Counted from the first letter of the whole stretch, positions 28,317 to 47,930 are shown. The stretch is 62,200 nucleotides of DNA, filler included, from Aduncisulcus paluster (GCA_024181965.1; 3 parts of 3 records of this genome joined end to end with filler, not necessarily neighbours in it), one strand, 5' to 3'. Numbers and translations are program-made. The notes: generated from the letters alone by a model not told the origin.

Positions 28317-28341
28317 TCATTACTAATGAGATTAGTAATCT
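28317..28341. repeat. 25-nt twin-palindrome element TACTA-N7-TAGTA (copy 1)
   Basis: TCATTA-C-TAATGA overlapping by 1 nt with AGATTA-G-TAATCT, between convergent genes. Confidence 0.85.
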
Positions 28342-28517
28342 AGGGTTTTACGATTATTGCTCATTAATACTAACGAATTGTTTATTATTATCCAGTTTTT
28401 CATATTAATACATCCAATTTTGTTAAAATGAAACGGTACAATCGTCCCAATTTCAACTAATTAATGAATATAAAATAGAAACTATAATTTAAGAAAATAA
28501 CGAAAAATAATGAGAAC

Positions 28518-29657
28518 TTAAATTCTTTTATAAAATCCTTTGAGAATGCCACTAACATTAAAGTATCTAGAAGAGCTATATTTTCTTCTAATGGCCACAA
28601 GTCGCGAAGATAAGCCAGCTCCACATGATTTCTTCACAATTAGAGCAAGAGCAGAGACATCGGCTTCCTGGTAACCAGTGTGTTCATAAAGAGTTGAGGA
28701 CCAGCCATCTTTGCCGGAAATAACATTTGAAAGGTAAATTGCTGCTGCTGCAAGGAAAGATGGACGATATTTAAGCATCTTAATATCCATTAAGCATAAT
28801 TCGGCAATTAAGAAGGAGAGATATCTTTGAGGATGTGATAATTCGGCGATTTTAGCATATCTTCTCAGAAATGTTATGGAAGTTGGGAATGAGAGACTAA
28901 ATCTGAGGGTAGTGAGAATAACCTTTTCCATTTGAACTAATTCATCGCGAGTAAAAGCTCCATCTGTCATGTAAACAAATTTATCGATCGACTGAGTGTA
29001 TGAATCTTCGAATTTGCTTGCAATTACGAGAGAAGCAATTCCAAGAAGCTGCAATCTACGTCGTACAACCTGCTTTTTGCTACTAAGGAATCGATCACAT
29101 ATTTGAACAGAAAGGAAAAGAGCTTCATTGGGGAGTTTAAAATTAGTGTGAACTTCAGAAATCCAGTCTATCAAAATACTTCTCATTTTGGGGGCGAGAT
29201 CAGGCTGTCTTATGAGATAATTGGGATCGGGACGACCCTTTTGCTCCGCTTCGAGTAAATATTGGTAAATTTCCTTGACATATTCAGACACGGCATAAGG
29301 ATTATCATCATCTTCAGCATCAATATCAATCAAGGGATCGACTTTGGGCATAGGAATAGGGTCTAACTCACCATGACTCTCCGAAAAAGAGTCTTGGCTG
29401 CTCGGAATTGATAAAGAAGATTGGGAAGGGGGCATATGTTCGGATAACTGACTTTGTGTAGATTCAGAAGCAAATCCCTAAGAAAGAGGAATATATTGGT
29501 TGTAAAATTATTAAAAACGGATAAAAAATAATTAGATGGCAAGTAATTTGAAATAACATACAACTTCTCCGAGAATTTTCCTGTCACTTTCAACTTGGTA
29601 ATGCTTAATAGGAGCATGAAAATATGATTCTGACTGAATTGATTGATATCCGTACAT
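28518..29657 (-). CDS. Mitotic B-type cyclin, 2 exons (29657-29562, 29477-28518)
   Basis: Cyclin box MRSILIDW, LQLLGIASLVIASKFE, FLRRYAK; NPYAVSEYVKEIY; exon 1 supplies the D-box-like RKILGEV. Confidence 0.92.
29478..29561 (-). other. Spliceosomal intron, 84 nt, phase 0
   Basis: GTATGTTATTTC...CTCTTTCTTAG; contains an in-frame TAA; splicing gives a continuous ORF. Confidence 0.88.
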
Positions 29658-30082
29658 AGTAAATTAGTTCTAAAATTTACAGAAATTGCAGAAAATTGGG
29701 TAGAAATGGTAAAATTTGGAAAAGGTTAGAAATCAGCATAAAATATGATAATTTTTATAATATTTGATATATATAATAAGTAAACATACAAAATATTGCA
29801 ATATTCTTGAAGTGGAATATTATATGACGGCTTCAAAACCAGAACTTTTCAGAAATCGAAAAATGAAATAATACACGGGCGATATAAGGGGAATATCTCA
29901 ATGATTAGATAAAATTGGATTGATTCTAATAATCATATCCCGAAATTTATTTAAAAATAAGCGTAGAGGATGTGAAAACTGTTTAAGTGGTAACTAAAAA
30001 GGAATTATTCAATAAAAAAAAACAAATCGATTTGAAAATGCTCAAATAAACGCACGAAATTCATTTATAATAAAACATGGTA

Positions 30083-30718
30083 TTACTTAGACACGAGAGA
30101 AGGGAAAGTGCACTTTCCAGGAACTAAATCTGAACAAAATACACTTTCTGGAGATATTGATGACGAATTGGGTGAAATAAAGAACCCAGATGGTTCCACT
30201 GGATATATTCTTTCAAGAGATAAACGAGGGTTAGATGAATCCAGAAGTCCATCACATGAAAAATCAAGAGAGAGAGAAGGATAAGAAGATGTAGAAAATG
30301 ATGAGATTGAGCGAGATGAGGAGGAGGAGGATGGAAATGGAACGTCTAAGTGTGAATGGTGAGAGTGGAATGTTGACGGGTGATGCATGGTGCCTTGCAA
30401 TGGGTGGAGATTATCATAATACGAGGGCTGGGAGGGCCCAAAAAGATCACTTCCTTGTCCAACTCCATCATAATGAGTGTAAATATGAGGAGAGTAGCTT
30501 GGGAAACAGGGAGCCATATCATATCGGGAACTTCTTGGGTATGGGGCTGGAGGATGTCCGTGATGAGAGGAAGAATGAAGGTAGGGTTCACATGCAGCTC
30601 TTTTCTGAGGAAATGAGAGCAAGGGAGGACATTGGTCTCGATCTGAATGCTGAATTGATGGAGAAAAATGAGAAACTCGTTTCTTTTCACGAATGATTGA
30701 TTTTTCTTGAACTGGACT
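30083..30718 (-). CDS. 3' part of a Ser/Pro/His-rich protein, truncated by the linker gap
   Basis: Frame open from the gap (SPVQEKSIIREKK...) to the TAA at 30083. Confidence 0.65.
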   Translation of the reverse strand, partial: SPVQEKSIIREKKRVSHFSPSIQHSDRDQCPPLLSFPQKRAACEPYLHSSSHHGHPPAPYPRSSRYDMAPCFPSYSPHIYTHYDGVGQGSDLFGPSQPSYYDNLHPLQGTMHHPSTFHSHHSHLDVPFPSSSSSSRSISSFSTSSYPSLSLDFSCDGLLDSSNPRLSLERIYPVEPSGFFISPNSSSISPESVFCSDLVPGKCTFPSLVSK

Positions 30719-30719
30719 A

Positions 30720-30819
30720 NNNNNNNNNNNNNNNNNNNNNNNNNNNNNNNNNNNNNNNNNNNNTTAATTAATTAANNNNNNNNNNNNNNNNNNNNNNNNN
30801 NNNNNNNNNNNNNNNNNNN
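30720..30819. other. Artificial 100-nt contig linker (44N-TTAATTAATTAA-44N)
   Basis: Six-frame stop spacer embedded in Ns; an identical construct sits at 47752-47851. Confidence 0.95.
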
Positions 30820-31802
30820 TTTTCACGTGTCATTTCTATGATTCTAGATATTCTCTTTTTCATTTCTGTCTGCTCCTTATCTGAAGCTAAGTGAGGTCCC
30901 TTATCAAGAACAAAGGCTCCTCCATGTGCGACAATGCTTTTTTCAATCATCGACAAAGCTCTCTTCATGTTTTCCAGGGCTGTTGTCTGCCATTTTGATT
31001 GGCACACCATTAAGAACATTGGAGAGGATAAAAGGGTAATTTTAATGGGAGCTTCGGGTGTTGAAAAATCAAGACCAGTGGAAACAGAATCCTTAATAGC
31101 GGTGATTCCTTTCTCATTAAAACAAGTTACTCTGAAAAGGGAATGGAACTTCACAGCAGAAGGAGCAAGTTTATCTTTAACACGCTCATAGAGGATTGGA
31201 AGCAATCTCTCAGCTTTTTCTTCCAAGGAAGCCTTTTCTTCTGGGTCAAGATCGTGTCTTTCGGTCAATTCTTCAATGGCTTGCTTTGATACACGCTCAA
31301 AAGTTCCGGCTTCATTGATAGCAACAAGAAGACCATCATAAACGTTATCGTATTCATCAGCAAGTGGCCAACCGAAAAGAGTGTAAACTTCTATTGTTCT
31401 CAACTTAGCTTTGTAAGCAATGTTCCTAAAAATGTTATGAACCGCCTTTGATTTTGCATATTTAGCCCTAGCTTCGTTTTTATCATCATCATTGATGTCT
31501 CTTTTCGACACATCAACATTTCCTTTTGATTCATCAACACGCATAACAGAAACAACATCCTCAGCACCTTCGATTATTCCAACCTTTTTTAAGGAACGAA
31601 CTCTTTTCCTAGAAATTTCACGGAATTGAAGCATTGCCTTCATTTCAGCATATTCTAAAAGACGTACATAAACTCCTGTATCGGTGATTTTTTCAACTTT
31701 ACAGACAACATTCTGATTCTGAGCTGGGAAAGGATTCTTATACATCCTACAATCCTCGGCAAGTTGAGTTTCACCTCTGAGTTTTTGTTTTCTCTCTGAC
31801 AT
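30820..31802 (-). CDS. EIF2S1: Translation initiation factor eIF2 alpha, 3'-truncated by gap
   Basis: CRMY...FP, YV.LLEY, EISRKRVRS (Ser51 context), V.RVD..KG.VD.SKR, VTCF...GI.AIK, PIKI.L..SP; likely start MSERK at 31802. Confidence 0.92.
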
Positions 31803-32385
31803 TTTTTCTTGCTGAACAAAGCGGATGAAAATATTCAATCGAGAAAATAGTGAGAATAAACTGGTAATTTCCGCATACGATAAAATAATATGAAGTAAAT
31901 AAGAAAAATTATCATTTTTTAGTTTTCTTTTCTTTCAAGAAAGGACTATTCAATTTGTTGACAGCCTTCTGAAGGCAGAGGTGTTCCAGTATTATACGAT
32001 TACTTGTTCTTCTATCATGTAGAATGGGAAAAATATCAGAAAATTGAAATCAAACTTTATTTTATGAGGGATCCGCCAATCTTGAACAAATTGGGAATAT
32101 TGAGATGAAATATTGGCATGAACAACAAATAGAACGATTTTATTTGTGAATTTTTCAATATATTTCCTTTTTGTTACAACCTTGGGTCTCCAGTCAACTT
32201 CCCTGATTCATCGGATGGATCATTTCATCATCAATCGCTGTGGATGTTGAGGTCAGAAAAAAAAAACGAAAATAATATAGTAAACATTATTTCACACAAT
32301 TTATTAAATATAACAGCCCTTTCTCATATTTCTATAAATAGTACCAATCATGATAGGCATTTTGGCTCTTTTGAAAGTTAGCTAA

Positions 32386-33564
32386 ATGGAATCTATTGAA
32401 TCTGGAAGCTTTGAGACTAATTGGAGTCAAGTATTCACATCATTTGATGATTTGGGTTTACGTAAAGAGTTACTTAGAGGAGTTTATGCTATGGGTTTTG
32501 AGAAGCCTTCCGCCATCCAACAATATGGAATTAAGCCTATTGTTGAAGGACGTGACACAATCGCTCAAGCTCACTCAGGAACTGGTAAGACAGCTACCTT
32601 CAGTATAGCCACCCTTGAGAAGGTTGATATCACGAAGAAGGTCCCTCAAGCTTTGATCCTTGCTCCTACCAGGGAGCTTGCTGGACAAAGCAAAGCTGTT
32701 TTGTCAAACCTTGCTAGATTTATGTCTGGTTTGAGTGTTCACTGTGCTATTGGTGGTACTCCCATTGATGATGATATTGCTGCTTTCCACCGTGGTGTCC
32801 ACATTGTTGTTGGAACCCCTGGTCGTATTAATGATCTTATTAGGAGAGAAGTTCTCACCCCTGCCACTATTGAGCTTATTATTCTCGATGAGGCTGATGA
32901 GATGCTTTCTCGTGGTTTTTCTGAGCAGATCTACGATATCTTCAAGAGCTTGTCATCCGAAGTACAGGCCTGTTTGATTTCTGCTACTATGCCTAGCAGT
33001 ATCCTCGAGATGACCTCTCAATTCATGAGAGACCCAGTCCAAATCCTTGTTAAGAGAGAAGTTCTTACTTTGGAAGGTATTCGTCAATTCCATATTGATG
33101 TTGATGCTGAATCATGGAAGATCGAGACTCTTTTGGACATTTATAAGATTATCAGTGTCCAACAGTCTGTTATCTTCTGTAATACCAGGACAAGGGTTGA
33201 GCAACTCGTTGAGGAACTCAAAAAGCAGAAATTCACTGTTGTTTGTATCCACGGTGAAATGGAACAGCGCGAAAGAGATGCCATAATGCGTGAGTTCCGC
33301 TCTGGTACCCACCGTGTTCTTGTTGCCACTGATCTTATAGCTAGAGGAATCGATGTCCAAAACTGTTCTTTGGTCATCAACTTCGATATTCCTAAGAATA
33401 AGGAAACATATATCCACCGTATCGGTCGTTCTGGTCGTTTTGGTCGTAAAGGTATTGCTATTAACTTCATCACTCGTGATGATGCTGAGATGCTCAAGGA
33501 AATCGAGCGTCACTACGAGACTGAAATCCCCCCCATGCCCGAAAACATCTCCTCTTTGCTGTAA
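32386..33564 (+). CDS. EIF4A: DEAD-box RNA helicase eIF4A
   Basis: GFEKPSAIQQ, SGTGKT, PTRELA, TPGR, DEADEMLSRGF, SAT, ARGIDVQ, HRIGRSGRFG. Confidence 0.95.
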   Translation: MESIESGSFETNWSQVFTSFDDLGLRKELLRGVYAMGFEKPSAIQQYGIKPIVEGRDTIAQAHSGTGKTATFSIATLEKVDITKKVPQALILAPTRELAGQSKAVLSNLARFMSGLSVHCAIGGTPIDDDIAAFHRGVHIVVGTPGRINDLIRREVLTPATIELIILDEADEMLSRGFSEQIYDIFKSLSSEVQACLISATMPSSILEMTSQFMRDPVQILVKREVLTLEGIRQFHIDVDAESWKIETLLDIYKIISVQQSVIFCNTRTRVEQLVEELKKQKFTVVCIHGEMEQRERDAIMREFRSGTHRVLVATDLIARGIDVQNCSLVINFDIPKNKETYIHRIGRSGRFGRKGIAINFITRDDAEMLKEIERHYETEIPPMPENISSLL

Positions 33565-33695
33565 ATAGAAATAAATGTTCCCACTTTTTAATTGTGTTGA
33601 ATTTTCGCTTTTTGGCAGCCTCTCCAAACTTATTTCAATATTTACACCGTGCATTTTCCCAATTATTATTATAATTATACTCTTTTGTTTTTATT

Positions 33696-34250
33696 ATGGG
33701 TCTTTTAACTGTATTGAGGGATGTTAAAGAGAAGGAAAAAGAAATGCGTATTCTAATCCTGGGATTAGATAATGCTGGGAAGACAACGACGATTAAACGC
33801 ATTAAAGGGGAAGATGTTGATAAAATTTCGCCAACTGTAGGTTTTACAATCACATCATTTGATTTTCTGTCTTTCAAATTAAACATCTGGGATGTTGGGG
33901 GCCAGCGTACAATTAGATCATATTGGCGTAATTATTATGAAAAGACTGATGGTATTATCTGGGTTGTGGACTGCTCAGATCGCCGAAGAATTGAATCTTG
34001 TCAGAAAGAATTTTTTGAACTACTTGCAGCTGAAAAGTTGGAAGGTGCATCTTTATTGGTTCTTGCAAATAAGCAGGATATTGCTGGGGCAATGACACCC
34101 AAAGAGGTTGTGAAGCATTTGAAATTAGATGACGTGAAAAGAAGACATTGGAGAGTTCAAAAGGCGAGCGCAATGACAGGATTTGGCTTAAAAGAAGGGT
34201 TTGATTGGCTTGTTGATGATATTTCAAAGAGAATCTTTATATATGATTGA
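33696..34250 (+). CDS. ARL2: ADP-ribosylation factor-like GTPase 2
   Basis: MGLLT.L...K.KEKEMRIL.LGLDNAGKTT, WDVGGQ...RSYWRNY.E.TDG, NKQD, W.VDDI..RIF. Confidence 0.95.
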   Translation: MGLLTVLRDVKEKEKEMRILILGLDNAGKTTTIKRIKGEDVDKISPTVGFTITSFDFLSFKLNIWDVGGQRTIRSYWRNYYEKTDGIIWVVDCSDRRRIESCQKEFFELLAAEKLEGASLLVLANKQDIAGAMTPKEVVKHLKLDDVKRRHWRVQKASAMTGFGLKEGFDWLVDDISKRIFIYD

Positions 34251-34720
34251 TGAAACTTTTGAGATCGGTGATCGAAGTTTCCAAATAAAAAAACGGCCAA
34301 ATTGGTTCTAGTGAATAGAATCATATTTGAAACACGAAAAAATAAATTACAATATATAGAACCATCAAATAAGATATTTTTAAAGTGAATTTTAGAACTA
34401 ATGCTTAACCCTATAATATAACAATTGTAGTGGATATTTCAACAGATATGCCAACAAGGCCCTAAAAATTATTAATGCATATTGATATTATTATCATTAT
34501 AAATTTTTATATCCTGAATATCTATATAGAACTCGAGATACCCGCACTCTGATCAAATTATAAATAGCTAATATTGATGGAGTTAAAAACAATATTTACA
34601 TATATAACCATTATTTATTAAATAATTTCAAAAAAGGTTGATTTGTTTTGATTCTTTCACTTGAGGTCGTCAAATCTCTGCTTTTTGTCAACCATTAACA
34701 AAAAAAAAAAATTTGATATT

Positions 34721-36668: not shown

Positions 36669-38282
36669 ATGTCTAATCGTGTTTGTGGAGAGATTTTTCG
36701 TAAAAGCGACACTAAACACATATTCCCAGCTATTCCTACCAATTATGTTGTTAATATTGATAAGTTACGATGCAGTGGGCGCTTTTTTGTTGGAGATCGA
36801 ACCGAATTAATGTCAATGCTTCAAGATATATCTGGAGTCTGGTTCCAAGAACTTTTCCTGACCTTTTCTGAGCCTCAGAATATTGATTTTGTCTATATCC
36901 TTATACAAAACAATAGTTATGCCCCCTTGAGATTTAGTCTTCGACTTTATACGACTGATGGTCGCTACATCGGGAATTTTTCTGTTCCTTATTCACCCTC
37001 TGAATATACGTGGATTCGGTTCCCAATCAAGTTTAAAAACATCTATAGATGCGATGTTGTGAAAGTGGAAAGTCGAGATGGAACTCATCATGTGATTTTT
37101 GACGGAATTCGTTTTGTTGGATTTAATGAAAAGCTTGATCAAACAATAGACAAATCATCATTATTGGAGCCTAGGAAATCAACAGAATTAATCGAAGAAA
37201 TAGATGCTCTGCCTTCGATGGCTACATCTTCGTCATTTTTCCAATATACTCGCCAAAAACGAGATTCATCTCTTTGCAAAGCAAGTGGATCATTTATATG
37301 TCCACCTCACACCCCTCCAACTGGATACCAGTCCTCCAAAGCTGATCAATATGCAATTACCAACTCAAATCGAAAAACTATCACTGCCATGCAAGTTGAG
37401 AGCGATATCGACTCCTATCTGAGAAAAATAGAAAGTGACATTGACGGAGAACTTGGATTAAGATATTCACATCCAGATCACTCCACTATTCAATACCACA
37501 CTTCTCTTCCTCAGACAGAAATCTCTGTTGTCACCGATACAGATAAAATTTCACTGAATCTATCCAAACAATCAATACAAAAAGAATTTAAATCATGCCA
37601 GACAACCATTGATACTTCTGAAGTCCACCATCAACCTCCATCCCAACATACTGTACTATACTATACTGAACAGGACCAAGTTGAAGAACAGGACCAAGTT
37701 GAAGAACAAGAAAAAGGAGTTGAAGAACAAGAAAAAGGAGTTTGTCATGCTCAAGTTGGCATGTTCCTTGGACAAAACGAAGACAAAAGCCCTGATGAAG
37801 ATCGGTCCTTTTCTTTTTCCGAAGACAAAAGTGCTGATTCTTTTCAAGATGAACAAGATGAAGAAAGGGAGTCTGGAGAGATTAGAATTAAAAATGAATC
37901 AAAAGAACTCTCTCTCGTTGAAGATGACAAAAATACCAAGAAAGAAAAAGAAGAAGAAAAAGAAGAAAAAGAGGCGAAAGATAGACACAAAAGTAGTGAT
38001 CTTGTGCCACAATCGATGGTAAAAGAGCTTGAGGAAACAATCCAGGCATTACACGAAGAAAACTCACGCCTGAGCAATCAACTGAGTGACTTTGAAATGA
38101 AAGTTAAGCAACTTGAAGAGGACAAAGCAAAACTTCAGGAAGATCTCTCTGAAAAAGATCAAGAATTAGTTGAAATGAAGGAAGAAATTGAGATCTTAAC
38201 TCAAGAAAAGGATGAATTGTGGGAGAAAAACGATGCTCTCCATGAGGAAATTGAGACTTTGCAAGAAGAGAAAAATCAGTAA
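36669..38282 (+). CDS. Expanded-family beta-sandwich domain fused to an acidic linker and C-terminal coiled coil
   Basis: N-terminal FQELFLTF...IDFVYI...SYAP.RF...W..FPI...IYRC motif; C-terminal heptads. Confidence 0.82.
   Translation: MSNRVCGEIFRKSDTKHIFPAIPTNYVVNIDKLRCSGRFFVGDRTELMSMLQDISGVWFQELFLTFSEPQNIDFVYILIQNNSYAPLRFSLRLYTTDGRYIGNFSVPYSPSEYTWIRFPIKFKNIYRCDVVKVESRDGTHHVIFDGIRFVGFNEKLDQTIDKSSLLEPRKSTELIEEIDALPSMATSSSFFQYTRQKRDSSLCKASGSFICPPHTPPTGYQSSKADQYAITNSNRKTITAMQVESDIDSYLRKIESDIDGELGLRYSHPDHSTIQYHTSLPQTEISVVTDTDKISLNLSKQSIQKEFKSCQTTIDTSEVHHQPPSQHTVLYYTEQDQVEEQDQVEEQEKGVEEQEKGVCHAQVGMFLGQNEDKSPDEDRSFSFSEDKSADSFQDEQDEERESGEIRIKNESKELSLVEDDKNTKKEKEEEKEEKEAKDRHKSSDLVPQSMVKELEETIQALHEENSRLSNQLSDFEMKVKQLEEDKAKLQEDLSEKDQELVEMKEEIEILTQEKDELWEKNDALHEEIETLQEEKNQ
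37668..37742 (+). repeat. In-frame coding tandem repeats (18 nt x2, then 21 nt x~2)
   Basis: GAACAGGACCAAGTTGAA x2 then GAACAAGAAAAAGGAGTT(GAA) x2, encoding EQDQVE / EQEKGVE. Confidence 0.85.
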
Positions 38283-38390: not shown

Positions 38391-41300
38391 TCATTTATAA
38401 GCAGTAAATTCATAATCCTTCCTTCTCCTTCCTCCCTTTTCAATTCTCTTTCCATCTAATACAACTAAACTTGGCAACATGGAAAGAATAACGGTATTAT
38501 AGTCGCCTGTCCTACACACAGGATTACCAGGAGCCAACGTAAGACTCTGAAGACTCGGAAGAATATTAAGTCTGAACAAGGAAGAAGTGTCTCGAATTCT
38601 ATTTTTAGAAGCAGTCAACAACCTTAATCTCTTCAAGAAGTGTGGGTGTGACTCGAGGATACTTTTGCTCGGGAATACACTATCCAAACCACGCAATCCA
38701 TTGTCATCGAGGTGCATAACCTCAAGATTAACTAACGGAATCAAACAAGACCCTGAGATGCTCCGGAGAGAGCATCTGGACAGATCAAGGTGTGTTAAGT
38801 GTGTTAAGGAAGCGAAAGTGGATGCTTCTAGCTTTGACAAGGGGTTACCAGCAAGAACCAATTTACGGAGACGTTTAAGCTGAGAAAAACAGAAGGAAGG
38901 AACTCGGTCAAGGCAATTATCTGCGAGATCAAGCAAAACAAGCTTGGAACTAGAGTTCAGATTAACAATCCCTGATGTTACGAGCCTGTTTCCTGCCAAA
39001 CAAAGCTCTCGAATGGAAGGAAGAGGTGGTAATGTCGCGAGAGACTGCATATGATTACGTGATAAATCCATTCGAGTGATAGTGGAAGATCTTGGGTCAG
39101 AGCCCAAAGCCCCGAAATCTCTCAAACTTAGATTACTGAGATCAAGGGTAATGTCTTGTTTAGAAACCAATCTTGTTTCGTATCGTTTTTCATCTACTTC
39201 TTTTGTGAAAGCATCATTCAGTTGATTTCTACTAAGAGTCCCTTCATGTGTTAGTGCAGCCTGTTTCTTTTCAGCATCAGACACAGCTTTCCCATCCAAA
39301 ACCTTGATTTTTTTCATATGGAAGATCACATATAATCGATACATTCGGTCAGCTTCCGCGAGAGAAACAGAACTGCCATAAGAATCAACAATTTCATGAG
39401 TCAGGGGATTGCCACACAGTTCCATCACTGAGAGTCCATATTTAGAAAGAACCTCAACAGAATCAGTGTGGAGTTGATTATGGGATAAATATAGTTCGGA
39501 CATGTTTGGTTGGAGACACCCATGACGAATATGTTCCACCTGATTGTGTGATCCATTCAAAGCTCGAAGGGAATCAATTTTCATGACATTCTCAAAGTTT
39601 TTGAGCATATTATGTGATAAATTGATATGCCAGAGTCGTTTATGATGGATATGAGAGGCGTTCTTGGGAGATTGAGCACGAATAAGCTCTCCACCTCGAG
39701 AATTATCAGGATTTGGTCCACCAAGAGTCAATTCATGTATACAATTGCGGGACAAGTCCAATTCTTGAAGGATGGGACATGCCCGAAGAAATGAGGTGAG
39801 TGGAAATGAGGATATTTGGTTATTACAAAGATTTAAGACGGTCAAACATGGTAATGCAAAAGAAACAAAGGAATTAATTGAAGAAATAAATGAATGACTC
39901 ATGTCAATATGAACAGCATTGGCAAGATTGAATTTTGCTTGTGACTGAGAAAAGGTCGCCATATGGGTGTGATCGTCAGATTTTCCCTCAATTAATCGCA
40001 TCCCATTCTCAGCCCGTTGCTCAATGCTATCGTCATCGTATGAACACAAGGATATGGAGGAGATGCACAGCGATGAGGACAAGGCAAGACTATCACGAGC
40101 GTCAAGGGAATATGGGAAAGAAGCTCCACTAAACAGACTATGAAGAGAAGGCTTTGAGAATTGGTCTGAAATAGCTCGGGAAGAACCAATTCTGGAATAT
40201 GCTTGGTAACTTCTTGAAGAGGGTTCAAAGAATCCTGAGAAATAGTGATCTACCCTCATAACATTAGTCCTTGTCATGATATTCCTCACTATATTGAGAA
40301 TCTTGGAATTGACGCATGGATTCGAGTCCTCTTCATCCTCTGATGTCACACACATAATGGGGTTTAAATCGAGATACAGAGCACGCAAAGCTGGGAATAC
40401 ACAAGAGAATACAGTATCAATGTTTGAGGAACAAAGGGATGATTCCAACTCCCCAGATATGTTTGAAATGTTATTATCGACGAGTGAAAGAGTGTGTAAT
40501 TGAGGGAAAGAAAGGACTTGCTTCAGACGTTTCCGTTTTTCGTCATCGGAACACAATGAAATATCTTCATCGCTCAACACAAAACAAACACGATCAACCA
40601 CATTGCTATCACAAATAATTTCTTCGAGACAGGGGTGACCTTCACACAAAACAGAACGAAGTCCTTTCGTACCGATTCTATTTTTAGAACAATTAAAAAT
40701 CTTTAAGCAAGGGAACAGAGATAAAAATGATTTAATTCCCCTTTTTGCTGCCAGTAAACCATTCAACTCAGCATCTGACATGTCCAACCCAACAAGAGAA
40801 AGGGACTTGAGCCTGGCAGTAAAGCCACAGGAAGCAAGCGTCCCAGAGCGGACCAGTCGAGGTTGTATTCCAGAGGAAGCACACAAAGTATCATGCAGAG
40901 TATGGCCTCTTGTGAAGCTAGCCTCCAGGGAAAGTGATGACAGTATCGTGTGGGTCGCAGATGTGAGAGATGAGAGTGTATTGAATAAGAAAGGATACGA
41001 TGAAGCCAACGGATGGTCTCGTACTGTGGAAGCAACTAAACTTGAACACATATCTCCATCAGCGACTGCATCCTTCCTTTCCTCATTCTTGCTCTCTTTG
41101 ACCGTAAGACCAGCATCTTTCAATACTTGACGGATACTCTCGCACACCGCACTGATCTTCCTCTCTCCCCCCTTCCTGTACCTCCTTGACCACCGTGCAC
41201 ACCCAGCAACACCCTCCAGACCGAGAACAACGGCAGGATCAGGTGACTCGCTGCCAAGGTCGGTCTCACTCACACCACAACTGGCACAGCATCCAACAGC

Positions 41301-44300
41301 ATGCCCCACAACATCGTGGTCCTCGTCGGATGACAACGAAGGGAGTACGAGTGAGGATTTCTTCTTAAAATCTCCAGAGGCGAGGATTTGAGGATCATCT
41401 TCATATTCATAGCTGTATGATAGAACATATTCAGGGACAACACATTGTTCATCGAGACAGAAGAACATCGCAGCCTCATCGAGAAGGTGGGCTTTGTCAT
41501 CCTCTTTCCTTCCTGCTTCATCATCTTCATGTTCAACATTCCAAACATGTTTCTCTTTGAGAAGTTTCTCATACAAAACAGTCGTGTTTGAATCTTTTCG
41601 TAAGGCATGAGTGAATGAAGAAGGAGGAGGAACTCCATATAGAGGCTTATAAGGGAAAGAATGGTGAGGGAGGGGAGGCGGAAGTTTGTGAAGGACACCA
41701 TTTTCATCACGGATAGGTTGCAAACGCTTTGGCTTCCTTATCAAAACCTTGCATACAAGCACACAGCATCGTCTTTCTTCCATTGAAGGCGGGGCACACT
41801 CGCCATTGGAGCCACGAATCATGCGAGAGATGATATCATCGTCGATAAGATTCAAACTATCAGTGAAAGGAATAGCATGACAAATTCCACACCGAGCATA
41901 GGAAGAAGGAGAAGGCACACCGATTTGAGTGTATGAGGAAAGAAGAGACTCTTGGGAGGGGGAAGAGGGGGAGTGGGGAGAAGTTGTATCCGAGGGTGTG
42001 CACAAAGAACTAAGGATTGAATCAAGGTCTTTCTCAGAAATGGCATTGATGGGACTCTGACCACACTTCTTCATCCATTCTGCCTTGAATTCCTCCTTCC
42101 ATCTCCTGGACTTTGTCTTCATTCCGCCACATCCGTTCACTCTTTCTGATTGAGAACATCCACATACTAAAAATAGATATTGGTGAGAAACACTTACACT
42201 ATCACCCTCACTTTGTTCGAGAGCACGCGCAGCTTCTACAGCACTCTCAAGAGCATCGTCTGAGATATATTTGACCTTTCTGTATCCCTGCTTCCCATTT
42301 TTAACAAGAGCCGGCGAGACCTGGGTATTGTCATTTGTCTCATCATACAGGCCACGTAAGAATCTGTTATACACTCGGCTGACCCTGTGGATGTGTAACT
42401 TGACGGATGGTGGAAGAGATACACGTGATGACATGAGTTTTTGGATAGGTTCCAACCATTTGCTTCTTCCAGCAATCCCAGTGTCACTCCGACAGTTCCC
42501 ACCTGAACTGTGCTCAGCGATAAGAGAAGTGCAAATTGATGAAGAGAATGACACATTATCGCTTTGGAAGAATGCAGATATGCTTGCTAATGAAGCCACT
42601 GTGGATGATATAGATTTGTACAAAGAAGAACACAGAGCAAGAAGAGCTCTGAGAGTAGCAAGGGAAGGAAAGAGCGAAGGATGGGAATGAACAAGCAGAG
42701 GGTCAAGGACAGCCGAGGAGAGAAGTGTTGAGAAATTAAGCTCTTCTTCTGTTGTGGACATGGAAGGTGAAGAGAGGAGAGGAGAGGACATCGCAGTGCC
42801 AGTGCCAGGGTCTCCATGGGATATTGCCCGTTGGAGTCTATCGGCCATGGCATATTCTTCGACTTTCTCAACGAATGAATCCTTTTTGTTTCCTAAAAGA
42901 ATGTTTAACTCCCGAATAATCTGCCTGAGTTCTGAAAGGGCTTCAATAAGTCCAACTTTCTCTTTCTCTTCCACCATTCTCATAGCACTGCCACAGGCAA
43001 TAAATGTACGCGTTAGTGCGTGTATTTTCATCCGATAATAAAGCATTTTACGACTGAATACCCTCACAGCATCATCTACTTCTCGATCATTCACTCGAAC
43101 ACCATCAAGGACCGAAAGAGTGGAAAGATGATGCAAGGCAAATGTTCTATAATTAGCAAGATGAGAAACAGGTGCTGCTCCAAACATGGGATCGGAGAGA
43201 GAGAGAGATTGAAGTCTAGTGAAGACACGAAGATACGCAAGATCAAAAAAAGAGGTCAGAGGATTTCCAGCAAGGGATAAATGAAGGATTGGTGGAGGAA
43301 TTGATTGAATATGGACATCACGGAGACGATTACAACTCAAAATAAGTGAANNNNNNNNNNNNNNNNNNNNTTTTCATCCGATAATAAAGCATTTTACGAC
43401 TGAATACCCTCACAGCATCATCTACTTCTCGATCATTCACTCGAACACCATCAAGGACCGAAAGAGTGGAAAGATGATGCAAGGCAAATGTTCTATAATT
43501 AGCAAGATGAGAAACAGGTGCTGCTCCAAACATGGGATCGGAGAGAGAGAGATTGAAGTCTAGTGAAGACACGAAGATACGCAAGATCAAAAAAAGAGGT
43601 CAGAGGATTTCCAGCAAGGGATAAATGAAGGATTGGTGGAGGAATTGATTGAATATGGACATCACGGAGACGATTACAACTCAAAATAAGTGAACGCAGC
43701 CTGGGGAAAGATGGAAGATGGGAAAGTGATGTAAATTCATTATAACTAAGATCTAAAACACGAAGACTAGGCAAAGCAGCCATATCTCCGAAAGATGAAA
43801 GGTGGTTATTGTCTCTAAAAAAATAAAAAAGGGAAAATATGTTTTGAGAAGTAAGTTAAACTAATTTGATCTCAATATGAAAAGAGAACAGTAAATAAAA
43901 CATACAAATATAAGAATTTCAAATTTGAAAGCGAATTTAATCCATTTCCAATAACAGTTAAATTATTGTCGGATAACCATAGTACTCTGAGATTTTTGAG
44001 GGTATGAAGACCGGATATTTCTTGAATTCCACATTTTATGAGCGAAAGGATTCGCAAATGATAACAGAATACTTCCAAACCCCTAATTTGGTCAAAATCG
44101 GGTTGCAAAAACAACTCAATTCGCCGGACAAAATTTTCTTCATTTGGACAAAGAGAATGAACATCTGTGGGTTCAATAGAAGAGCTTAATTTCTTTGTTA
44201 TGGGCTCGGAGTATGGTCTTTGAATATATTTTTCACTATCTGAGTCTTCATCAAAAGGATCTTCCATTTCATCCTCATAGACATCAAAAACGGCACGTTT

Positions 44301-44472
44301 ATCTAAAATGTCTTGGTAATATGCATTATCAAATCCATTGCTTTCGCACTAATCAAATTGAACATATGTCAGGAGGTAAGAAAGACGCAAAGCATTTATC
44401 GTATTGCAAAAATAGAATAAATTAATTGTTTTTAACACATACTAAGATTGATAAATATCTGGAATCACTCAT
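38391..44472 (-). CDS. LRRC9: LRRC9-like protein: N-terminal LRRs, central PARP-like domain, C-terminal LRRs; 3 exons (44472-44443, 44348-43906, 43814-38391), ~1850 aa after removing the gap duplication
   Basis: LCESNG start, IELF, LRRs, L.DP.F...PV..L.NY....L.HL..L..LD and K.LYY.M match LRRC9 as recalled; central YLF...F.DS...VLVCKV...PEYVL.Y.Y; spliced/merged length 5553 nt is in frame. Confidence 0.8.
43815..43905 (-). other. Spliceosomal intron, 91 nt, phase 2
   Basis: GTATGTTT...TTTTTTTAG; splicing yields the canonical LRR LKFLYLDNNHL. Confidence 0.9.
44349..44442 (-). other. Spliceosomal intron, 94 nt, phase 0
   Basis: GTATGTG...CTGAC...TTGATTAG; joins MSDSRYLSIL to CESNGF... in frame with ORF 44267. 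Confidence 0.85.
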
Positions 44473-44671
44473 GTAAACGACAAACAGCAAAATAATGTTG
44501 CAATTGAATTTCCAGTTAATATGCCCGTAATTGAACTCTAATTCATAACTCATTATGAATGTTATTTTTAATATCGATTTCCTTACATCTTGATATCATT
44601 TAAGCACCAAGGTAGACAAATACTTCTCTATTTGGGCTGGATCAGTTTATTACACGATTAAATAGACGCTT

Positions 44672-45328
44672 ATGTGTCCAAAAGTGTCAAAAGTTGCAGA
44701 ATTTCTTAAAGAGTTTCTTATCTTATGTTCATTAGAGGGCTTTCAATATGTGACCTTTGAAACTCGTGGAAGGGAAGAAATGATGGTTAAAATCACCCCA
44801 CCATCTTCTTTTTCATGGTCAAAAACAATGTTAAAAGGAGAGGAAATAGATAAAAGTTTAGCTCCAGCCTCTCCAAGATATCGAGAAATTCTTGGTGACG
44901 AGATCCCAGATAATAGTGGGTTATTTCTCTTAGCGTTTTATCAAAAATATGGTAAACCTGGATGTTGGGCCAGAAATATTAAAGAAAGTGAGAAATTTAT
45001 CTCAGATTTACTCGGAGATGACATGATTCAACTTCATAGCCTCTCAGATTGGCGAGATCATCCAAGAGAGGCCGTTTTGAGAATTATCTGTGAATTAGTT
45101 GATGTTTCATGTGGGATAAAGGAGGCCTTCAAGTTGAATTTCGATGCCATCAGGTCCTATTTACATGAGAACACAACCGCTCAAGCCATTTCATTATATT
45201 CCGGACTAATAGAATTATATAAAAATTTATATTCAAATCCTTGGTATATTGAACATGCGGGATCAGAACATGTTGTTGAAGCAATTGATTTCCTGTGTGA
45301 TCATTTGGCTTTGCTTTTGGCGGTATAG
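44672..45328 (+). CDS. Hypothetical protein
   Basis: 218-aa ATG ORF with globular composition, divergent from the LRRC9-like gene. Confidence 0.7.
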   Translation: MCPKVSKVAEFLKEFLILCSLEGFQYVTFETRGREEMMVKITPPSSFSWSKTMLKGEEIDKSLAPASPRYREILGDEIPDNSGLFLLAFYQKYGKPGCWARNIKESEKFISDLLGDDMIQLHSLSDWRDHPREAVLRIICELVDVSCGIKEAFKLNFDAIRSYLHENTTAQAISLYSGLIELYKNLYSNPWYIEHAGSEHVVEAIDFLCDHLALLLAV

Positions 45329-45409
45329 ATACTAAAATATGAATTGGTTCCATTACATATTTTCTATGGTTTTTCATATATTCGATTGGATTATTGAGTT
45401 AATTAACCA

Positions 45410-45434
45410 ATGATACTATCATGCTTAGTAAGCA
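45410..45434. repeat. 25-nt twin-palindrome element TACTA-N7-TAGTA (copy 2)
   Basis: ATGATA-C-TATCAT overlapping by 1 nt with TGCTTA-G-TAAGCA, between convergent genes. Confidence 0.85.
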
Positions 45435-45874
45435 AGATTTTATTCTTACAAAGTCAAAAAATGTTCAGTATAGAGAAGAAAATCACAATCCAAATAATAT
45501 TATATTAAAAAAACTTCCAATAGAGTGAATTAATTGATAGAATATGAAAGAAAGGCTCAAATATGCCCGTCTAAGTTAATAATTCCATTTCTGGAATAAT
45601 AATATTCCAAGGGGAAAAATAAGAATAATATTTTCAAAATTAAGAGATTTGTGGAATTGGTTTGAATAGGATTGGCTGAATGAGTCAAATCAATGCAACA
45701 ACATGGAGATATCCAAAATAACAAATAATGCTGATAAAATAAATTATAAAAGACAAAAACAAAAGAGGTTAAAAAAGAAATCACTAAAAATAACCCTTCG
45801 CGGCGTAATAATAAATAAATAAGCATCCGCATGACTGATGATAAGCATAAAAATAGCATTACATCAGAAGGTCA

Positions 45875-46867
45875 CTATAATTTGGGATAATAAGCAGCTA
45901 CAATCACAGAGAGAGGATGGGGAGTACCTTCTACCGAGGGAACATCATAGGTGGGATAAGGACCAAATGAACCAAATGAATATGCATGTCCTGGAAGTTT
46001 GTCAATCGAAAACTTTCTCTTCCCATGGGAAAATGCTCGGGAATGGGTGGAGAACGTAGCCTTTCCGGCAATCTCATCGAAATACACTTCACATATGCAA
46101 CGGTTCTTTGAGTCTCGCATTTCAAAGGAAATATTCCCATCTTCATGGATAACAGCCTTGAATGGGGGAATTGTTAAAGATGAATGGGTGCATTTCAAAT
46201 GCCCAACAGGAAGTGACAATATTCCGGCGCTAGAGCTCTTATCGTCAACAGAAGTTGATTCAAACTTATCTAATCCTGATGGAACTGTAGAAATACGGGC
46301 CGAATTAGGAGAAGTACCATCAGAACTCGATGAAGGATTTTCGTTTATACAACGAAGAGTCTCGAAGGAAACATTCCAAACCCATGAATACCCAGCACAT
46401 TTAATCAGTCCGTAAGGGTAATCTTCAATGAGTTTCCGATATCTGTCTTGAATAATAATAGATTTGGTTAATTGGAAACGAGGAACAATTCCAGGGACTG
46501 GCACAATTGGGGGAGGTCCGATCGGACATTTAATGGGTAAAGAAAGTTGAATATTCGCAAGTTCAGCAATAATATAAACAATTTCCGAGGCATCATCGGA
46601 AATATACATAAAAGGGTGATCTGACCTCAAATAACAAATCAATCCTTTTGGACTTACAAGTTCTTGTACCCGAAAAACATCAGAATATGGAAAAGATTTC
46701 GTGGGAACTAGCTCAGAGGAGAAAAAATTTGTTTTGCAGTTCTTAATGAGGTCAGAACTTAAAACAAGTTGTCTTGGCTGTTTTTTCCCATACATATTCA
46801 TTTTTAAACATTTAAAGGTCTTAGGACCCTTTTCACGAAGCCTTGCAACAATAGGGGAAACTAACAT
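45875..46867 (-). CDS. Hypothetical protein with possible N-terminal PH-like domain
   Basis: F...K.N.YGKKQ.R.LVLS...I.N resembles myosin-I TH1/PH-like beta1-beta3; Pro-rich linker; domain call tentative. Confidence 0.72.
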   Translation of the reverse strand: MLVSPIVARLREKGPKTFKCLKMNMYGKKQPRQLVLSSDLIKNCKTNFFSSELVPTKSFPYSDVFRVQELVSPKGLICYLRSDHPFMYISDDASEIVYIIAELANIQLSLPIKCPIGPPPIVPVPGIVPRFQLTKSIIIQDRYRKLIEDYPYGLIKCAGYSWVWNVSFETLRCINENPSSSSDGTSPNSARISTVPSGLDKFESTSVDDKSSSAGILSLPVGHLKCTHSSLTIPPFKAVIHEDGNISFEMRDSKNRCICEVYFDEIAGKATFSTHSRAFSHGKRKFSIDKLPGHAYSFGSFGPYPTYDVPSVEGTPHPLSVIVAAYYPKL

Positions 46868-46935
46868 CAAAGAGGAATTCTATAGAAACAAATATTTTGA
46901 AAAATTAAAAGAAAATACAAAAATATGGATAAGAT

Positions 46936-47089
46936 AACTTCAAAGAAGTTCACTAAGTTTCTAGCTTGGTCAAATCATCCTTTCAGTCGCCGGAGACTCC
47001 GAGCCCAGCTCATAGAGTCTACTCAGACTCCTAGTAGGAGTGAGTCTTCTATTGGTAGAGTCTCTCATTTTCATCCTGCAAAAATGAGA
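46936..47089. repeat. Dense inverted-repeat array (candidate structured element)
   Basis: CGGAG-A-CTCCG, GAGC-CCA-GCTC, GAGTCT-ACTC-AGACTC, ACTCCTA-G-TAGGAGT, enclosing GAGACTC...GAGTCTC, TCTCATTTT...AAAATGAGA. Confidence 0.8.
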
Positions 47090-47321
47090 AAATTATAATA
47101 TTGTATGGCCTACTATATATATCATAATTCTTTTTTTTTTTTAATTTGGATGGTGTGATGTGAAAGACAAAAAATCCCAAATCTGTCCTTAATTCTCACA
47201 TAATTCAGCCAATTTCGGGCTTATCTCAACGCATCTCCGCAATTAAAAATATAGAAAACATAATATATCCACTTAATTCCAATTTTTTTCTGGTAATTCT
47301 GTGGAGTATGCATTGCATACT

Positions 47322-47751
47322 ATGCAAGCCAACGACTATCAGAAATATTTTATCCATTTTGCTAAAATTGAGAACATGGCTGGTTGTGGAAAATCATGCT
47401 CTATGGCACGTCGAAGTGTTTTAGAGTTGAATGCTGATGCCGAACTCTATCTTCGCTCATCTCGTCGTATTTTTTCATATTTCAGGGCCTTCTACCAAGA
47501 TAAGGGAGAAACTAATGCTTTTACTGCCGTTGAGACTGATTTTAATCCAATTCCTGCCATTTACGACGGTGTTTGCTTTGCTGATTTGAGCAAGGAATGC
47601 TTAAATTCTTTCAGTATCTCAAGGCCCCGTTAAGGTGTTGAGGGTGTTGCTCTTTTCAAAAGCTCAGGTTTGAAGAACCTCAAAGCTGTGAAGAAGTTCG
47701 CTGAGAAAGAAGGTTTTGTTTTCGACCATCCTCTTTCTTCTGAACTTGATC
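47322..47751 (+). pseudogene. Coding-like frame interrupted by one TAA (47631-47633), truncated by linker gap
   Basis: The same frame continues 39 codons after the TAA with the same codon bias (GGT GTT GAG GGT GTT GCT CTT TTC...) up to the gap. Confidence 0.5.
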
Positions 47752-47851
47752 NNNNNNNNNNNNNNNNNNNNNNNNNNNNNNNNNNNNNNNNNNNNTTAAT
47801 TAATTAANNNNNNNNNNNNNNNNNNNNNNNNNNNNNNNNNNNNNNNNNNNN
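47752..47851. other. Artificial 100-nt contig linker (44N-TTAATTAATTAA-44N)
   Basis: Same construct as 30720-30819. Confidence 0.95.
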
Positions 47852-47905
47852 TCTTAAATAATTTGAATAGAATAATAATAATAATACATTATTAAAATAC
47901 ATATG

Positions 47906-47930
47906 GTGGTACTACCATAATTAGTAATTA
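47906..47930. repeat. 25-nt twin-palindrome element TACTA-N7-TAGTA (copy 3)
   Basis: (G)TGGTA-C-TACCA(T) overlapping with TAATTA-G-TAATTA. Confidence 0.8.

What the first reader, a model, noticed from the sequence alone, without database searches (positions are those of the whole stretch)
28317..47930. Recurrent 25-nt 'twin-palindrome' intergenic element (TACTA-N7-TAGTA) with compensatory arm variation
Seen: three intergenic copies, TCATTACTAATGAGATTAGTAATCT (28317), ATGATACTATCATGCTTAGTAAGCA (45410) and GTGGTACTACCATAATTAGTAATTA (47906). Each is two 13-nt palindromes sharing one base, the first centred on TACTA and the second on TAGTA, with centres exactly 12 nt apart. Outer arms differ between copies (TCAT/ATGA, ATGA/TCAT, GTGG/CCAT with one G-T; AGAT/ATCT, TGCT/AGCA, TAAT/ATTA) yet keep complementarity, and the architecture reads the same on both strands. 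Single TAGTA-centred palindromes also occur at 3358-3370 and 47027-47041. Copies at 28317, 45410 and 3358 lie between convergent genes. Inference: structure rather than sequence is conserved, suggesting an undescribed strand-symmetric cis-element (bidirectional termination/3'-end signal, cruciform or replication-initiation site, or dimeric protein site) or the footprint of a templated repair process. I do not recognise it as a known family.
Basis: partly seen in the sequence, partly recalled or inferred. Interest (0 to 1): 0.8.

Follow-up and report, generated by a model that had tools for sequence, protein, structure and literature searches.

The report
Twin-palindrome scars in non-coding DNA
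The three 25-base twin palindromes are real and far beyond chance, but they look like the clearest members of a wider class of small DNA repair scars, most likely left where a jumping gene cut itself out, rather than a signal kept for its folded shape.

Summary
TACTA-N7-TAGTA occurs 3 times against 0.01 expected. All 33 tested arm positions pair, and 5 of 11 pairs change on both sides.

The three copies belong to a wider class. In DNA outside long ORFs, one-base-centred palindromes with C or G in the middle and arms of at least 6 number 21, against 3.1 expected. A/T-centred and even palindromes, and those inside ORFs, show no excess. Abutting pairs number 7 against 0.74 expected. Their centres always run C then G: 7 against 0.14 expected.

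Pairing runs right up to a single central base. Hairpins with 3- or 5-base loops are not enriched, and the RNA folds are weak. This points to palindromes copied in place from the local flank, not to selection on a fold.

The anatomy is outer flank, C, inverted copy of that flank, a 0-2 base overlap, inverted copy of the other flank, G, outer flank, often with a 2-base direct repeat (TA). It matches hairpin (P-nucleotide) excision footprints of cut-and-paste transposons. No transposon lies in the window, and no whole genome was available.

A role at mRNA 3' ends remains a live rival. Copy 1 ends 14 nt before the end of a cyclin RNA contig, and TTACAA follows all three copies.

The parts
28317..28341 (.). 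Twin palindrome copy 1: TCATTACTAATGA and AGATTAGTAATCT, sharing one base; centres C at 28323 and G at 28335
   Evidence: Lies inside an RNA contig of the minus-strand cyclin gene that spans 28303-29477. DNA-run and RNA-run contigs cover it with 0 differences.
45410..45434 (.). Twin palindrome copy 2: ATGATACTATCAT and TGCTTAGTAAGCA, sharing one base; centres at 45416 and 45428
   Evidence: Starts 82 nt after the stop of the + strand DUF7886 ORF (44672-45328) and ends 441 nt from the stop of the minus-strand ORF 45875-46867.
47906..47930 (.). Twin palindrome copy 3: first arm pair of 5 plus one G-T, second arm of 6; centres at 47912 and 47924
   Evidence: Lies 55 nt from the contig joint at 47752-47851 and about 450 nt upstream of the MYG1 ORF.
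3358..3370 (.). Single TAGTA-centred 13-nt palindrome between convergent ORFs 106 nt apart
47027..47041 (.). Single TAGTA-centred 15-nt palindrome, inside a cluster of inverted GAGTC/GACTC copies (about 46990-47050)
47313..47327 (.). Single TACTA-centred 15-nt palindrome, overlapping a 17-nt T-centred palindrome (47305-47321)
11897..11929 (.). Twin palindrome of different sequence: centres C at 11904 and G at 11921, arms 7 and 8, one base between them, GA repeated next to both centres
   Evidence: Lies in a stop-to-stop frame with no Pfam match.
15801..15845 (.). C-centred palindrome (15808, arm 7) abutting an A-centred one (15821, arm 5), then a G-centred one (15839, arm 6) 6 nt further on
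20114..20137 (.). Twin palindrome: centres C at 20120 and G at 20131, arms 6 and 6, overlapping by 2
23253..23278 (.). Twin palindrome: centres C at 23260 and G at 23273, arms 7 and 5, abutting, AA repeated next to both centres; lies in a multi-copy region
28162..28178 (+). AATAAA and the poly(A) addition site of the MFS gene. This shows that gene's 3' end forms 139 nt before copy 1.
   Evidence: loose end of 23 A behind 28178 in run X2. Sequence.
28303..28316 (-). The last 14 nt of the cyclin RNA contig beyond copy 1, ending in TTACAA
   Evidence: record 12 spans 28303-29477.

Best explanation
The twin palindromes are scars made in place when a double-strand break in non-coding DNA was repaired through hairpin-capped ends. 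They are not elements kept for their fold.

Proposed steps:
1. Each broken flank was closed into a hairpin with one base at its tip. That base is C, read 5' to 3' on each strand.
2. The hairpin was nicked about 6-7 nt from the tip. This left a 3' overhang that is the inverted copy of the flank (P nucleotides).
3. The two overhangs were joined with 0-2 nt of overlap.

The product is flank, C, inverted flank, inverted other flank, G, other flank. This is the observed structure.

The most likely source of the breaks is excision of a cut-and-paste transposon that inserts at TA (or another 2-nt site) and has 5'-C...G-3' ends.

What is shown: the anatomy, its statistics and its restriction to non-ORF DNA. 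What is inferred: the hairpin intermediate, the transposon and the order of events.
For: 1. The arms are unrelated between copies yet pair perfectly: 33 of 33 cells. The flanks are unrelated. So each copy was built from its own flank.

2. Only one kind of palindrome is in excess.
- One-base-centred with C or G in the middle, arm at least 6, outside ORFs: 21 against 3.07+-1.78 (0 of 300 shuffles).
- The same inside ORFs: 6 against 7.27.
- A/T-centred outside ORFs: 10 against 6.95.
- Even palindromes over the whole window are not enriched.

3. Among stems of at least 6 outside ORFs:
- loop 1: 31 against 9.63 (0 of 150 shuffles)
- loop 3: 7 against 7.20
- loop 5: 8 against 6.91
Selection on a fold would not demand pairing next to the apex. 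Copying gives it for free.

4. Abutting twins number 7 against 0.74+-0.95 (0 of 200). The centre order is C then G in 7, against 0.14 per shuffle; G then C is 0 against 0.15. That is 7 of 8 C/G-C/G twins, p=3.8e-4. The junctions are -2 to +1 nt, as in end joining with microhomology.

5. The 2 nt before the C recur after the G in 5 of the 7 twins: TA three times, GA once, AA once. This is what a 2-bp target-site duplication would leave.

6. TA-C/G-TA sites:
- 8 of 34 outside ORFs sit in palindromes with arms of at least 6, against 0.18 expected (0 of 300 shuffles)
- 0 of 33 inside ORFs
- 2 of 128 TA-A/T-TA sites outside ORFs

7. The excess by arm length peaks at 6-7 and is absent at 9 or more, as expected if the nick falls at a preferred distance from the tip.

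8. Literature (passages read):
- Ac/Ds footprints are deletions plus palindromic P-nucleotide insertions on both sides of the joint, each centred on one base, mostly with microhomology; arms reach 20 nt in yeast (PMC5873905).
- hAT, Transib, RAG1 and MULE transposases make flank hairpins (PMC5499845).
- RAG1/Transib-related transposons with 5'-CA..TG-3' ends and 2-5 bp duplications, including a TA-duplicating lineage, exist (PMC12730594).
Against: - No transposon, terminal inverted repeat or transposase domain lies in the window. Pfam was run on 28 long ORFs and on 45 of 48 further frames. Inverted-repeat scan.
- The known hAT rule does not fit. In hAT the centre is the complement of the base bordering an 8-bp duplication, and here the flanks are not 8-bp duplicates (read from the sequence). 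The model therefore needs a first nick one base inside the element. I have not seen that documented.
- 2 of 7 twins lack the 2-nt repeat.
- All three TACTA/TAGTA copies have the same 13-nt insert length. That is tidier than most footprint series.
- About one scar per kb of non-coding DNA is a high density for a window with no transposon.
- TTACAA lies from 2 nt inside to 17 nt beyond the TTAGTAA-side end of all three copies. The chance of any shared 6-mer in three random non-ORF windows is 0.0086.
- Copy 1 ends 14 nt before the end of the cyclin RNA contig. The scar model does not predict this.
- No empty site, polymorphism or related genome could be examined. The DNA run showed no alternative joint at the five twins it covered.
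Confidence: 0.5

Rival explanations
1. The TACTA/TAGTA class is a working element of mRNA 3' ends. It would act as a polyadenylation or termination signal, or as a 3'-UTR regulatory site. Read in one orientation it has a TACTA half, then a TTAGTAA half, then TTACAA at the cleavage site. Its effect might resemble the giant-virus 'hairpin rule'.
For: - Copy 1 lies in the cyclin 3' UTR. The RNA contig ends at 28303, 14 nt past the element and exactly after TTACAA.
- TTACAA follows the TTAGTAA half in 3 of 3 copies, p about 0.009 for any shared 6-mer.
- The orientation fits the nearer upstream gene in the 2 of 2 copies that can be judged.
- The spacing is constant in 3 of 3.
- 5 of 8 convergent spacers hold a C/G-centred palindrome, against 1 of 6 divergent spacers (my tally; not significant).
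- In giant viruses, palindromes between ORFs mark polyadenylation sites (PMC5413956, passages).
Against: - The neighbouring MFS gene uses AATAAA and a site 139 nt before copy 1, so the element is not bidirectional.
- Of the 68 TAGTA/TACTA sites in the window, few lie just downstream of a stop codon, and most of the 28 long ORFs have none within 160 nt after the stop.
- The folds are weak and differ between copies.
- Selection on a fold or on a sequence-reading protein explains neither perfect pairing to a one-base centre, nor the C-then-G order, nor the same architecture with unrelated sequences at 11897, 20114 and 23253.
- The end of an assembled RNA contig is only a rough 3' end, and no poly(A) tail was listed there.
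Confidence: 0.2
2. The palindromes come from a general, transposon-free mutational process: a polymerase switches template, or snaps back, at breaks or stalled forks. This adds inverted copies of nearby sequence and perfects quasi-palindromes.
For: - Zig-zag clusters of alternating inverted copies occur at 47305-47327, about 46990-47050 and 45582-45609.
- Stems with 4-nt loops are also in excess outside ORFs: 15 against 6.81, one of the 15 being an assembly duplicate.
- No transposon lies in the window.
Against: - A sequence-blind process should give even and A/T-centred palindromes as often. It does not.
- It does not predict a C at every apex in the 5'-to-3' sense, a strong preference for TA next to the centre, or 2-nt direct repeats.
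- Priming across a one-base loop is sterically implausible for a polymerase (established knowledge, not tested here).
Confidence: 0.15
3. The sites bind a dimeric DNA-binding protein, for example a Yap/Pap-type bZIP factor. The half-site pair TTA(C/G)TAA is recalled from knowledge of fungal AP-1-like factors, not taken from a call.
For: TTAGTAA or TTACTAA is present in one half of all three copies and in both halves of copy 1. bZIP sites are odd palindromes centred on C or G (recalled).
Against: - 2 of 3 copies lie between convergent genes, away from any promoter.
- The second half is only TACTA in copies 2 and 3.
- The palindromy continues into positions whose bases differ between copies, which a sequence-reading protein would not require.
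- By my reading of the flanks printed, the window holds 9 TTA(C/G)TAA heptamers. A rough composition estimate of my own, not a computed shuffle, gives no excess.
Confidence: 0.05

Closest known systems
Excision footprints of hairpin-forming cut-and-paste transposons (Ac/Ds and other hAT elements; Transib, RAG and MULE chemistry), with P-nucleotide palindromes
   Same: Two short inverted duplications of the flanking DNA lie side by side at the joint. Each is centred on a single base, and they are joined with 0-2 nt of microhomology or a stray base. The arm sequences depend wholly on the local flank (PMC5873905 and PMC5499845, passages read).
   Different: In Ac/Ds the central base is the complement of the base bordering an 8-bp duplication. 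Here the flanks are not 8-bp duplicates. The centres are always C then G, and a 2-nt repeat (mostly TA) flanks them. This fits an element with a TA duplication and C...G ends, nicked one base inside. The arms cluster at 6-7 nt, longer and more uniform than in most published series. No element was found in the window.
CMCT-clade transposons (EnSpm/CACTA, Mirage, Chapaev, Transib and the TA-duplicating ESTA lineage, all related to RAG1)
   Same: They have 5'-CA..TG-3' ends and 2-5 bp duplications, including TA. They are related to Transib and RAG1, which make flank hairpins (PMC12730594 and PMC5499845, passages read). This is the kind of element the scars predict.
   Different: Nothing in this window encodes or resembles one. 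The footprints of these families were not described in the passages I read.
V(D)J coding-joint P nucleotides
   Same: A hairpin-capped end is opened off-centre, which leaves a palindromic addition at the joint (recalled; PMC5499845 mentions RAG1 hairpins and Artemis).
   Different: RAG hairpins have no extra tip base, so their palindromes are even and usually 1-4 nt long. Here they are odd, with a C or G tip, and 6-7 nt long.
Giant-virus 'hairpin rule' for mRNA 3' ends
   Same: Palindromes are concentrated between ORFs, sequence-variable but structure-constant, and usable on both strands between convergent genes (PMC5413956, passages read).
   Different: Here the stems are only 5-6 bp and AU-rich, with insignificant folding energy. 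The host is a eukaryote with GT-AG introns and AATAAA. Most genes lack such a palindrome.
Double-hairpin elements of chytrid mitochondrial DNA (recalled only; no paper read)
   Same: Short intergenic units that fold into two adjacent hairpins.
   Different: Those are mitochondrial, longer, and share sequence as a mobile family. These are nuclear and share only the five-base centres.

Membership tests
Transposon excision footprint of the flank-hairpin (P-nucleotide) type | Inverted duplications of the flanking sequence on both sides of the joint | tested here: met
   33 of 33 arm cells pair in the 3 copies. There are 7 abutting twins against 0.74 expected.
Transposon excision footprint of the flank-hairpin (P-nucleotide) type | Each palindrome centred on one base set by the cleavage chemistry, the same way round at every site | tested here: met
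   The centres are C then G in 7 twins against 0.14 per shuffle; G then C is 0. Only C/G-centred odd palindromes are in excess.
Transposon excision footprint of the flank-hairpin (P-nucleotide) type | Remnants of a target-site duplication beside the joint | tested here: inconclusive
   A 2-nt direct repeat is present in 5 of 7 twins (TA three times, GA, AA; sequences). An 8-bp hAT-type duplication is excluded by the flanks.
Transposon excision footprint of the flank-hairpin (P-nucleotide) type | A matching transposon or transposase in the same genome | not testable with these tools
   No whole genome is held. Within the window none was found.
Transposon excision footprint of the flank-hairpin (P-nucleotide) type | An empty or filled version of the site in another copy, strain or species | not testable with these tools
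   No relatives were found: the best identity of eIF4A to any other protein is about 60%. The DNA run showed no alternative joint at the five twins it covered.
Hairpin-type mRNA 3'-end signal (hairpin rule) | Transcript ends map at or just after the palindrome | tested here: inconclusive
   For copy 1 the RNA contig ends 14 nt past the element, but no poly(A) tail was listed there. Copies 2 and 3 were not covered.
Hairpin-type mRNA 3'-end signal (hairpin rule) | The palindrome folds into a stable hairpin in the RNA | tested here: not met
   Over 6 folds, minimum free energies run from -5.1 to -6.6 kcal/mol and z from -0.1 to -1.8. None of the 6 has the twin hairpin as its minimum-energy fold.
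Hairpin-type mRNA 3'-end signal (hairpin rule) | Serves both genes of a convergent pair | tested here: not met
   The MFS gene is polyadenylated at 28178, 139 nt before copy 1.
Described RNA families (Rfam 15) and tRNA | A match at the gathering score | tested here: not met
   There are 0 Rfam matches and 0 tRNA genes in the window.

The most novel reading that the evidence does not exclude
The scars are not debris from an ordinary selfish transposon. They would be the product of an enzymatically precise hairpin-forming nuclease, for instance a domesticated RAG/Transib-like or CACTA-like transposase. It would cut at TA sites near gene 3' ends and always leave the same 13-base insert. The TAGTAA-bearing product would then be used as a polyadenylation or termination signal. 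That would be a eukaryotic counterpart of the giant-virus hairpin rule, written by a DNA-breaking enzyme.
Probability: 0.12. Interest if true: 0.85.

Novelty: new variant of a known kind. Interest (0 to 1): 0.5.

Why it matters
If the reading is right, this compact eukaryotic genome carries about one recognisable hairpin-repair scar per kilobase of non-coding DNA, with an unusually regular geometry: a C or G tip and arms of 6-7 nt.

That would give a direct sequence record of:
- past cut-and-paste transposon activity in a genome region where no transposon remains;
- where that organism's hairpin-opening nuclease cuts;
- how often its end joining uses microhomology.

It is also a caution for comparative RNA work. 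Perfect 'compensatory' covariation can be produced by templated copying, with no selection on structure.

If the 3'-end rival is right instead, a non-canonical polyadenylation element would be worth defining.

Tried and rejected
- Whole-genome scan: not possible, because no genome is held.
- Taxon: two protein searches found no close relative and gave no assignment. The best identities were 33% for MYG1 and about 60% for eIF4A. I did not pursue the source further.
- RNA evidence. No listed holder is on record as RNA. One run is guessed to be RNA, and I treat it as RNA because only it shows GT-AG joints and a poly(A) loose end.
- TAGTA or TAGTAA as the general polyadenylation signal: rejected. 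Few of the 68 TAGTA/TACTA sites lie just downstream of a stop codon.
- Splice signals: rejected. The four introns seen start with GTATGTT or GTATGA and end in AG after a T-rich stretch. None touches the elements.
- hAT-type 8-bp duplication, and 3- or 4-bp duplications (CACTA, PIF, piggyBac): rejected from the flanks.
- Longer repeat or MITE: no flank similarity and no terminal inverted repeats.
- Known RNA families and tRNAs: none.
- Earlier findings of this scan: nothing relevant.
- Assembly artefact: rejected for copy 1. The exact duplications at the 20-N gaps do not touch any C/G-centred palindrome.
- Print. Two searches on footprints, hairpins and palindromes listed no paper whose title or abstract describes natural-genome twin 13-mers of this kind; I read only passages of two of the listed papers. 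This is not proof that none exists.

Full report
**Setting**

The window is a gene-dense eukaryotic sequence with about 37% G+C. It reads well in the standard code: 32 ORFs of at least 150 aa. Table 6 only adds spurious frames. The ORFs include an MFS transporter, a cyclin, eIF4A, Arf, eIF2-alpha, PARG, a TrkH-type transporter and MYG1.

The window is a pseudo-scaffold of three contigs, joined by N44-TTAATTAATTAA-N44 linkers at 30720-30819 and 47752-47851. Six 20-N gaps are each flanked by exact duplications of 154-300 nt. No whole genome is held, and no close relative was found. Everything below therefore rests on these 62 kb and on one read-laying run.

**The observation**

- TACTA-N7-TAGTA occurs 3 times against 0.01 expected; 0 of 100 shuffles reach 3.
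- With any spacer from 0 to 30 nt allowed, the same three are still the only hits, all with N7 (0.61 expected).
- The reverse order, TAGTA then TACTA, gives 2 hits against 0.60 expected, which is unremarkable.
- Aligned in one orientation, all 33 cells of the twin-hairpin structure pair (one is G-T). 5 of 11 pairs change on both sides, and 0 of 500 shuffles reach this.
- At non-ORF base composition the chance of at least 23 of 24 Watson-Crick arm pairs is 5.8e-12.
- The flanks share nothing.

**A wider class**

The three copies are the tip of something larger.
- Over the whole window, odd palindromes with arms of at least 6 number 42 against 26.8+-5.5. Those with arms of at least 7 number 15 against 7.7+-2.6. 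Even palindromes are at expectation.
- The excess is confined to palindromes with C or G at the centre and to DNA outside long ORFs. There, 21 occur against 3.07+-1.78 (0 of 300 shuffles).
- The controls show no excess: 6 against 7.27 inside ORFs, and 10 against 6.95 for A/T centres outside ORFs.
- By arm length, the excess is nil at 3, modest at 4-5, strongest at 6 (12 against 2.16) and 7 (8 against 0.57), and gone by 9.
- The core TA-C/G-TA is the main carrier. 8 of 34 such sites outside ORFs have arms of at least 6, against 0.18 expected. The figures are 0 of 33 inside ORFs and 2 of 128 for TA-A/T-TA sites outside ORFs.

**Twins**

Palindromes that abut (arms at least 5, gap -2 to +2) number 7 against 0.74+-0.95, and 0 of 200 shuffles reach 7. 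Besides the three TACTA/TAGTA copies they lie at 11897-11929, 15801-15826, 20114-20137 and 23253-23278, with quite different sequences.

With a looser cut (arms at least 4, summing to at least 9) there are 10 pairs against 4.88+-2.30. Seven of them have C in the first centre and G in the second, against 0.14 per shuffle. None has G then C. Among twins with C or G at both centres that is 7 of 8, p=3.8e-4.

Read from the sequences, the two bases before the C recur after the G in 5 of the 7 twins: TA three times, GA once, AA once.

**Fold or copy?**

Three results argue that the palindromes are copied, not folded.
- Among perfect stems of at least 6 outside ORFs, only a one-base 'loop' is strongly enriched: 31 against 9.63. 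Loops of 3 (7 against 7.20) and 5 (8 against 6.91) are at expectation. A real hairpin cannot pair next to a one-base tip, so selection on folding would leave those positions free. A templated copy pairs them automatically.
- The RNA folds of the three loci on either strand are weak, with z from -0.1 to -1.8. The twin hairpin is the minimum-energy fold in none of the 6.
- The arms differ between copies at nearly every position, and the flanks are unrelated. Each copy seems to have been built from its own surroundings, not descended from a common element with compensatory changes.

The 'covariation' is therefore real but is not evidence of selection.

**Mechanism proposed**

The anatomy is outer flank, C, inverted copy of that flank, a 0-2 nt overlap or one stray base, inverted copy of the other flank, G, outer flank. 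This is what results if both ends of a break are sealed as hairpins with one base at the tip, nicked 6-7 nt away on the 3' side, and joined.

[quoted passage not shown] Flank hairpins are made by hAT, Transib, RAG1 and MULE enzymes (PMC5499845, passages).

The details differ from hAT. The flanks are not 8-bp duplicates, so the centre cannot be the complement of a duplicated border base. The data fit an element with a 2-bp (mostly TA) duplication and 5'-C...G-3' ends, whose first nick lies one base inside the element. Transposons related to RAG1 and Transib, with 5'-CA..TG-3' ends and 2-5 bp duplications including TA, are described (PMC12730594, passages). I could not test whether this genome has one. 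The hairpin, the nick position and the transposon are all inferences.

**Against this reading**

- The window holds no transposase domain: 28 long ORFs and 45 of 48 further frames. It holds no convincing terminal inverted repeats.
- Two of 7 twins lack the 2-nt repeat.
- The three TACTA/TAGTA copies have an identical insert length.
- The density, about one scar per kb of non-ORF DNA, is high.
- Two facts point to mRNA 3' ends. Run X2 shows GT-AG joints and a poly(A) loose end that X1 lacks. In X2, a contig of the minus-strand cyclin gene runs from 29477 down to 28303. That is 14 nt beyond copy 1, and it stops right after TTACAA. TTACAA also follows the TTAGTAA half of copies 2 and 3. Three random non-ORF windows share any 6-mer with probability 0.0086.

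I therefore keep a 3'-end or 3'-UTR function as the main rival, at about 0.2.

The strand-symmetric version of that rival is contradicted. The + strand MFS gene next to copy 1 is polyadenylated at 28178, after AATAAA at 28162 and 139 nt before the element. A transposon-free template-switching process (0.15) would explain the zig-zag clusters at 47305-47327, 46990-47050 and 45582-45609. It would not explain the C/G centre, the C-then-G order or the TA preference. A bZIP-like protein site (0.05) does not explain the variable paired arms or the position between convergent genes.

**Position**

By my tally, C/G-centred palindromes occur in 5 of 8 convergent spacers, 3 of 9 tandem spacers and 1 of 6 divergent spacers. 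It is equally expected if insertions are tolerated at 3' ends and removed from promoters.

**Verdict**

I specify it as hairpin or P-nucleotide scars, most likely from excision of a TA-targeting cut-and-paste element (confidence 0.5).

This is a new variant of a known kind of feature, of moderate interest. A whole-genome scan, a search for the element, a comparison with a sister genome and mapping of poly(A) sites would settle it.

Noticed in passing
window 30720-30819 and 47752-47851; 20-N runs at 11368, 18573, 19828, 22199, 43351 and 57145: The window is a pseudo-scaffold. Two linkers of the form N44-TTAATTAATTAA-N44 join three contigs. Each of the six 20-N gaps is flanked by exact duplications of 154-300 nt (for example 56686-56985 = 57165-57464). 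These are unmerged contig overlaps, and they break or duplicate ORFs.
   Followed up: partly
window 22998-24932: In this region the summed depth of DNA-run contigs is 11-34 times the baseline (13888-42526 against about 1248), with many variant contigs and loose ends. It holds ORF 23561-24544, a protein with no Pfam match. It is probably a multi-copy gene family. The twin palindrome at 23253-23278 lies inside it, and no indel was reported there.
   Followed up: partly
window 22763-22914, 25008-25087, 29478-29561 and 29670-29789 (minus strand): Four GT-AG introns are seen only in run X2. Three start with GTATGTT and one with GTATGA. They are 80-152 nt long and end in AG after a T-rich stretch. 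The intron at 25008-25087 implies a minus-strand gene not in my ORF list, starting near 25095 and overlapping the start of the + ORF at 25094.
   Followed up: partly
window 28149-28178: The MFS mRNA 3' end. A perfect 6-bp stem with a 4-nt loop (28149-28164) overlaps AATAAA (28162-28167). Poly(A) is added at 28178, 14 nt after the stem. This is the same distance as between copy 1 and the end of the cyclin RNA contig. It may be coincidence.
   Followed up: no
window 49900-49920 (+) and 37650-37670 (-): The same roughly 20-nt run of TAGTA and CAGTA units occurs once between convergent genes and once, inverted, inside ORF 36669-38282.
   Followed up: no
window 47305-47327, about 46990-47050, 45582-45609 and 1326-1345: Zig-zag clusters in which one 5-8 nt word alternates with its reverse complement three or more times. 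They look like repeated rounds of inverted copying at one spot.
   Followed up: partly
window, non-ORF DNA: Perfect stems of at least 6 with a 4-nt loop are also in excess: 15 against 6.81+-2.71, one of the 15 being an assembly duplicate. So are stems with an 8-nt loop: 14 against 6.82. No loop motif is shared.
   Followed up: no
window 43502-44348 (minus strand): Two further frames with leucine-rich repeats lie upstream of the 1598-aa LRR ORF (38391-43187). That gene is therefore longer than the ORF, or is interrupted by the 20-N gap and its duplication.
   Followed up: no
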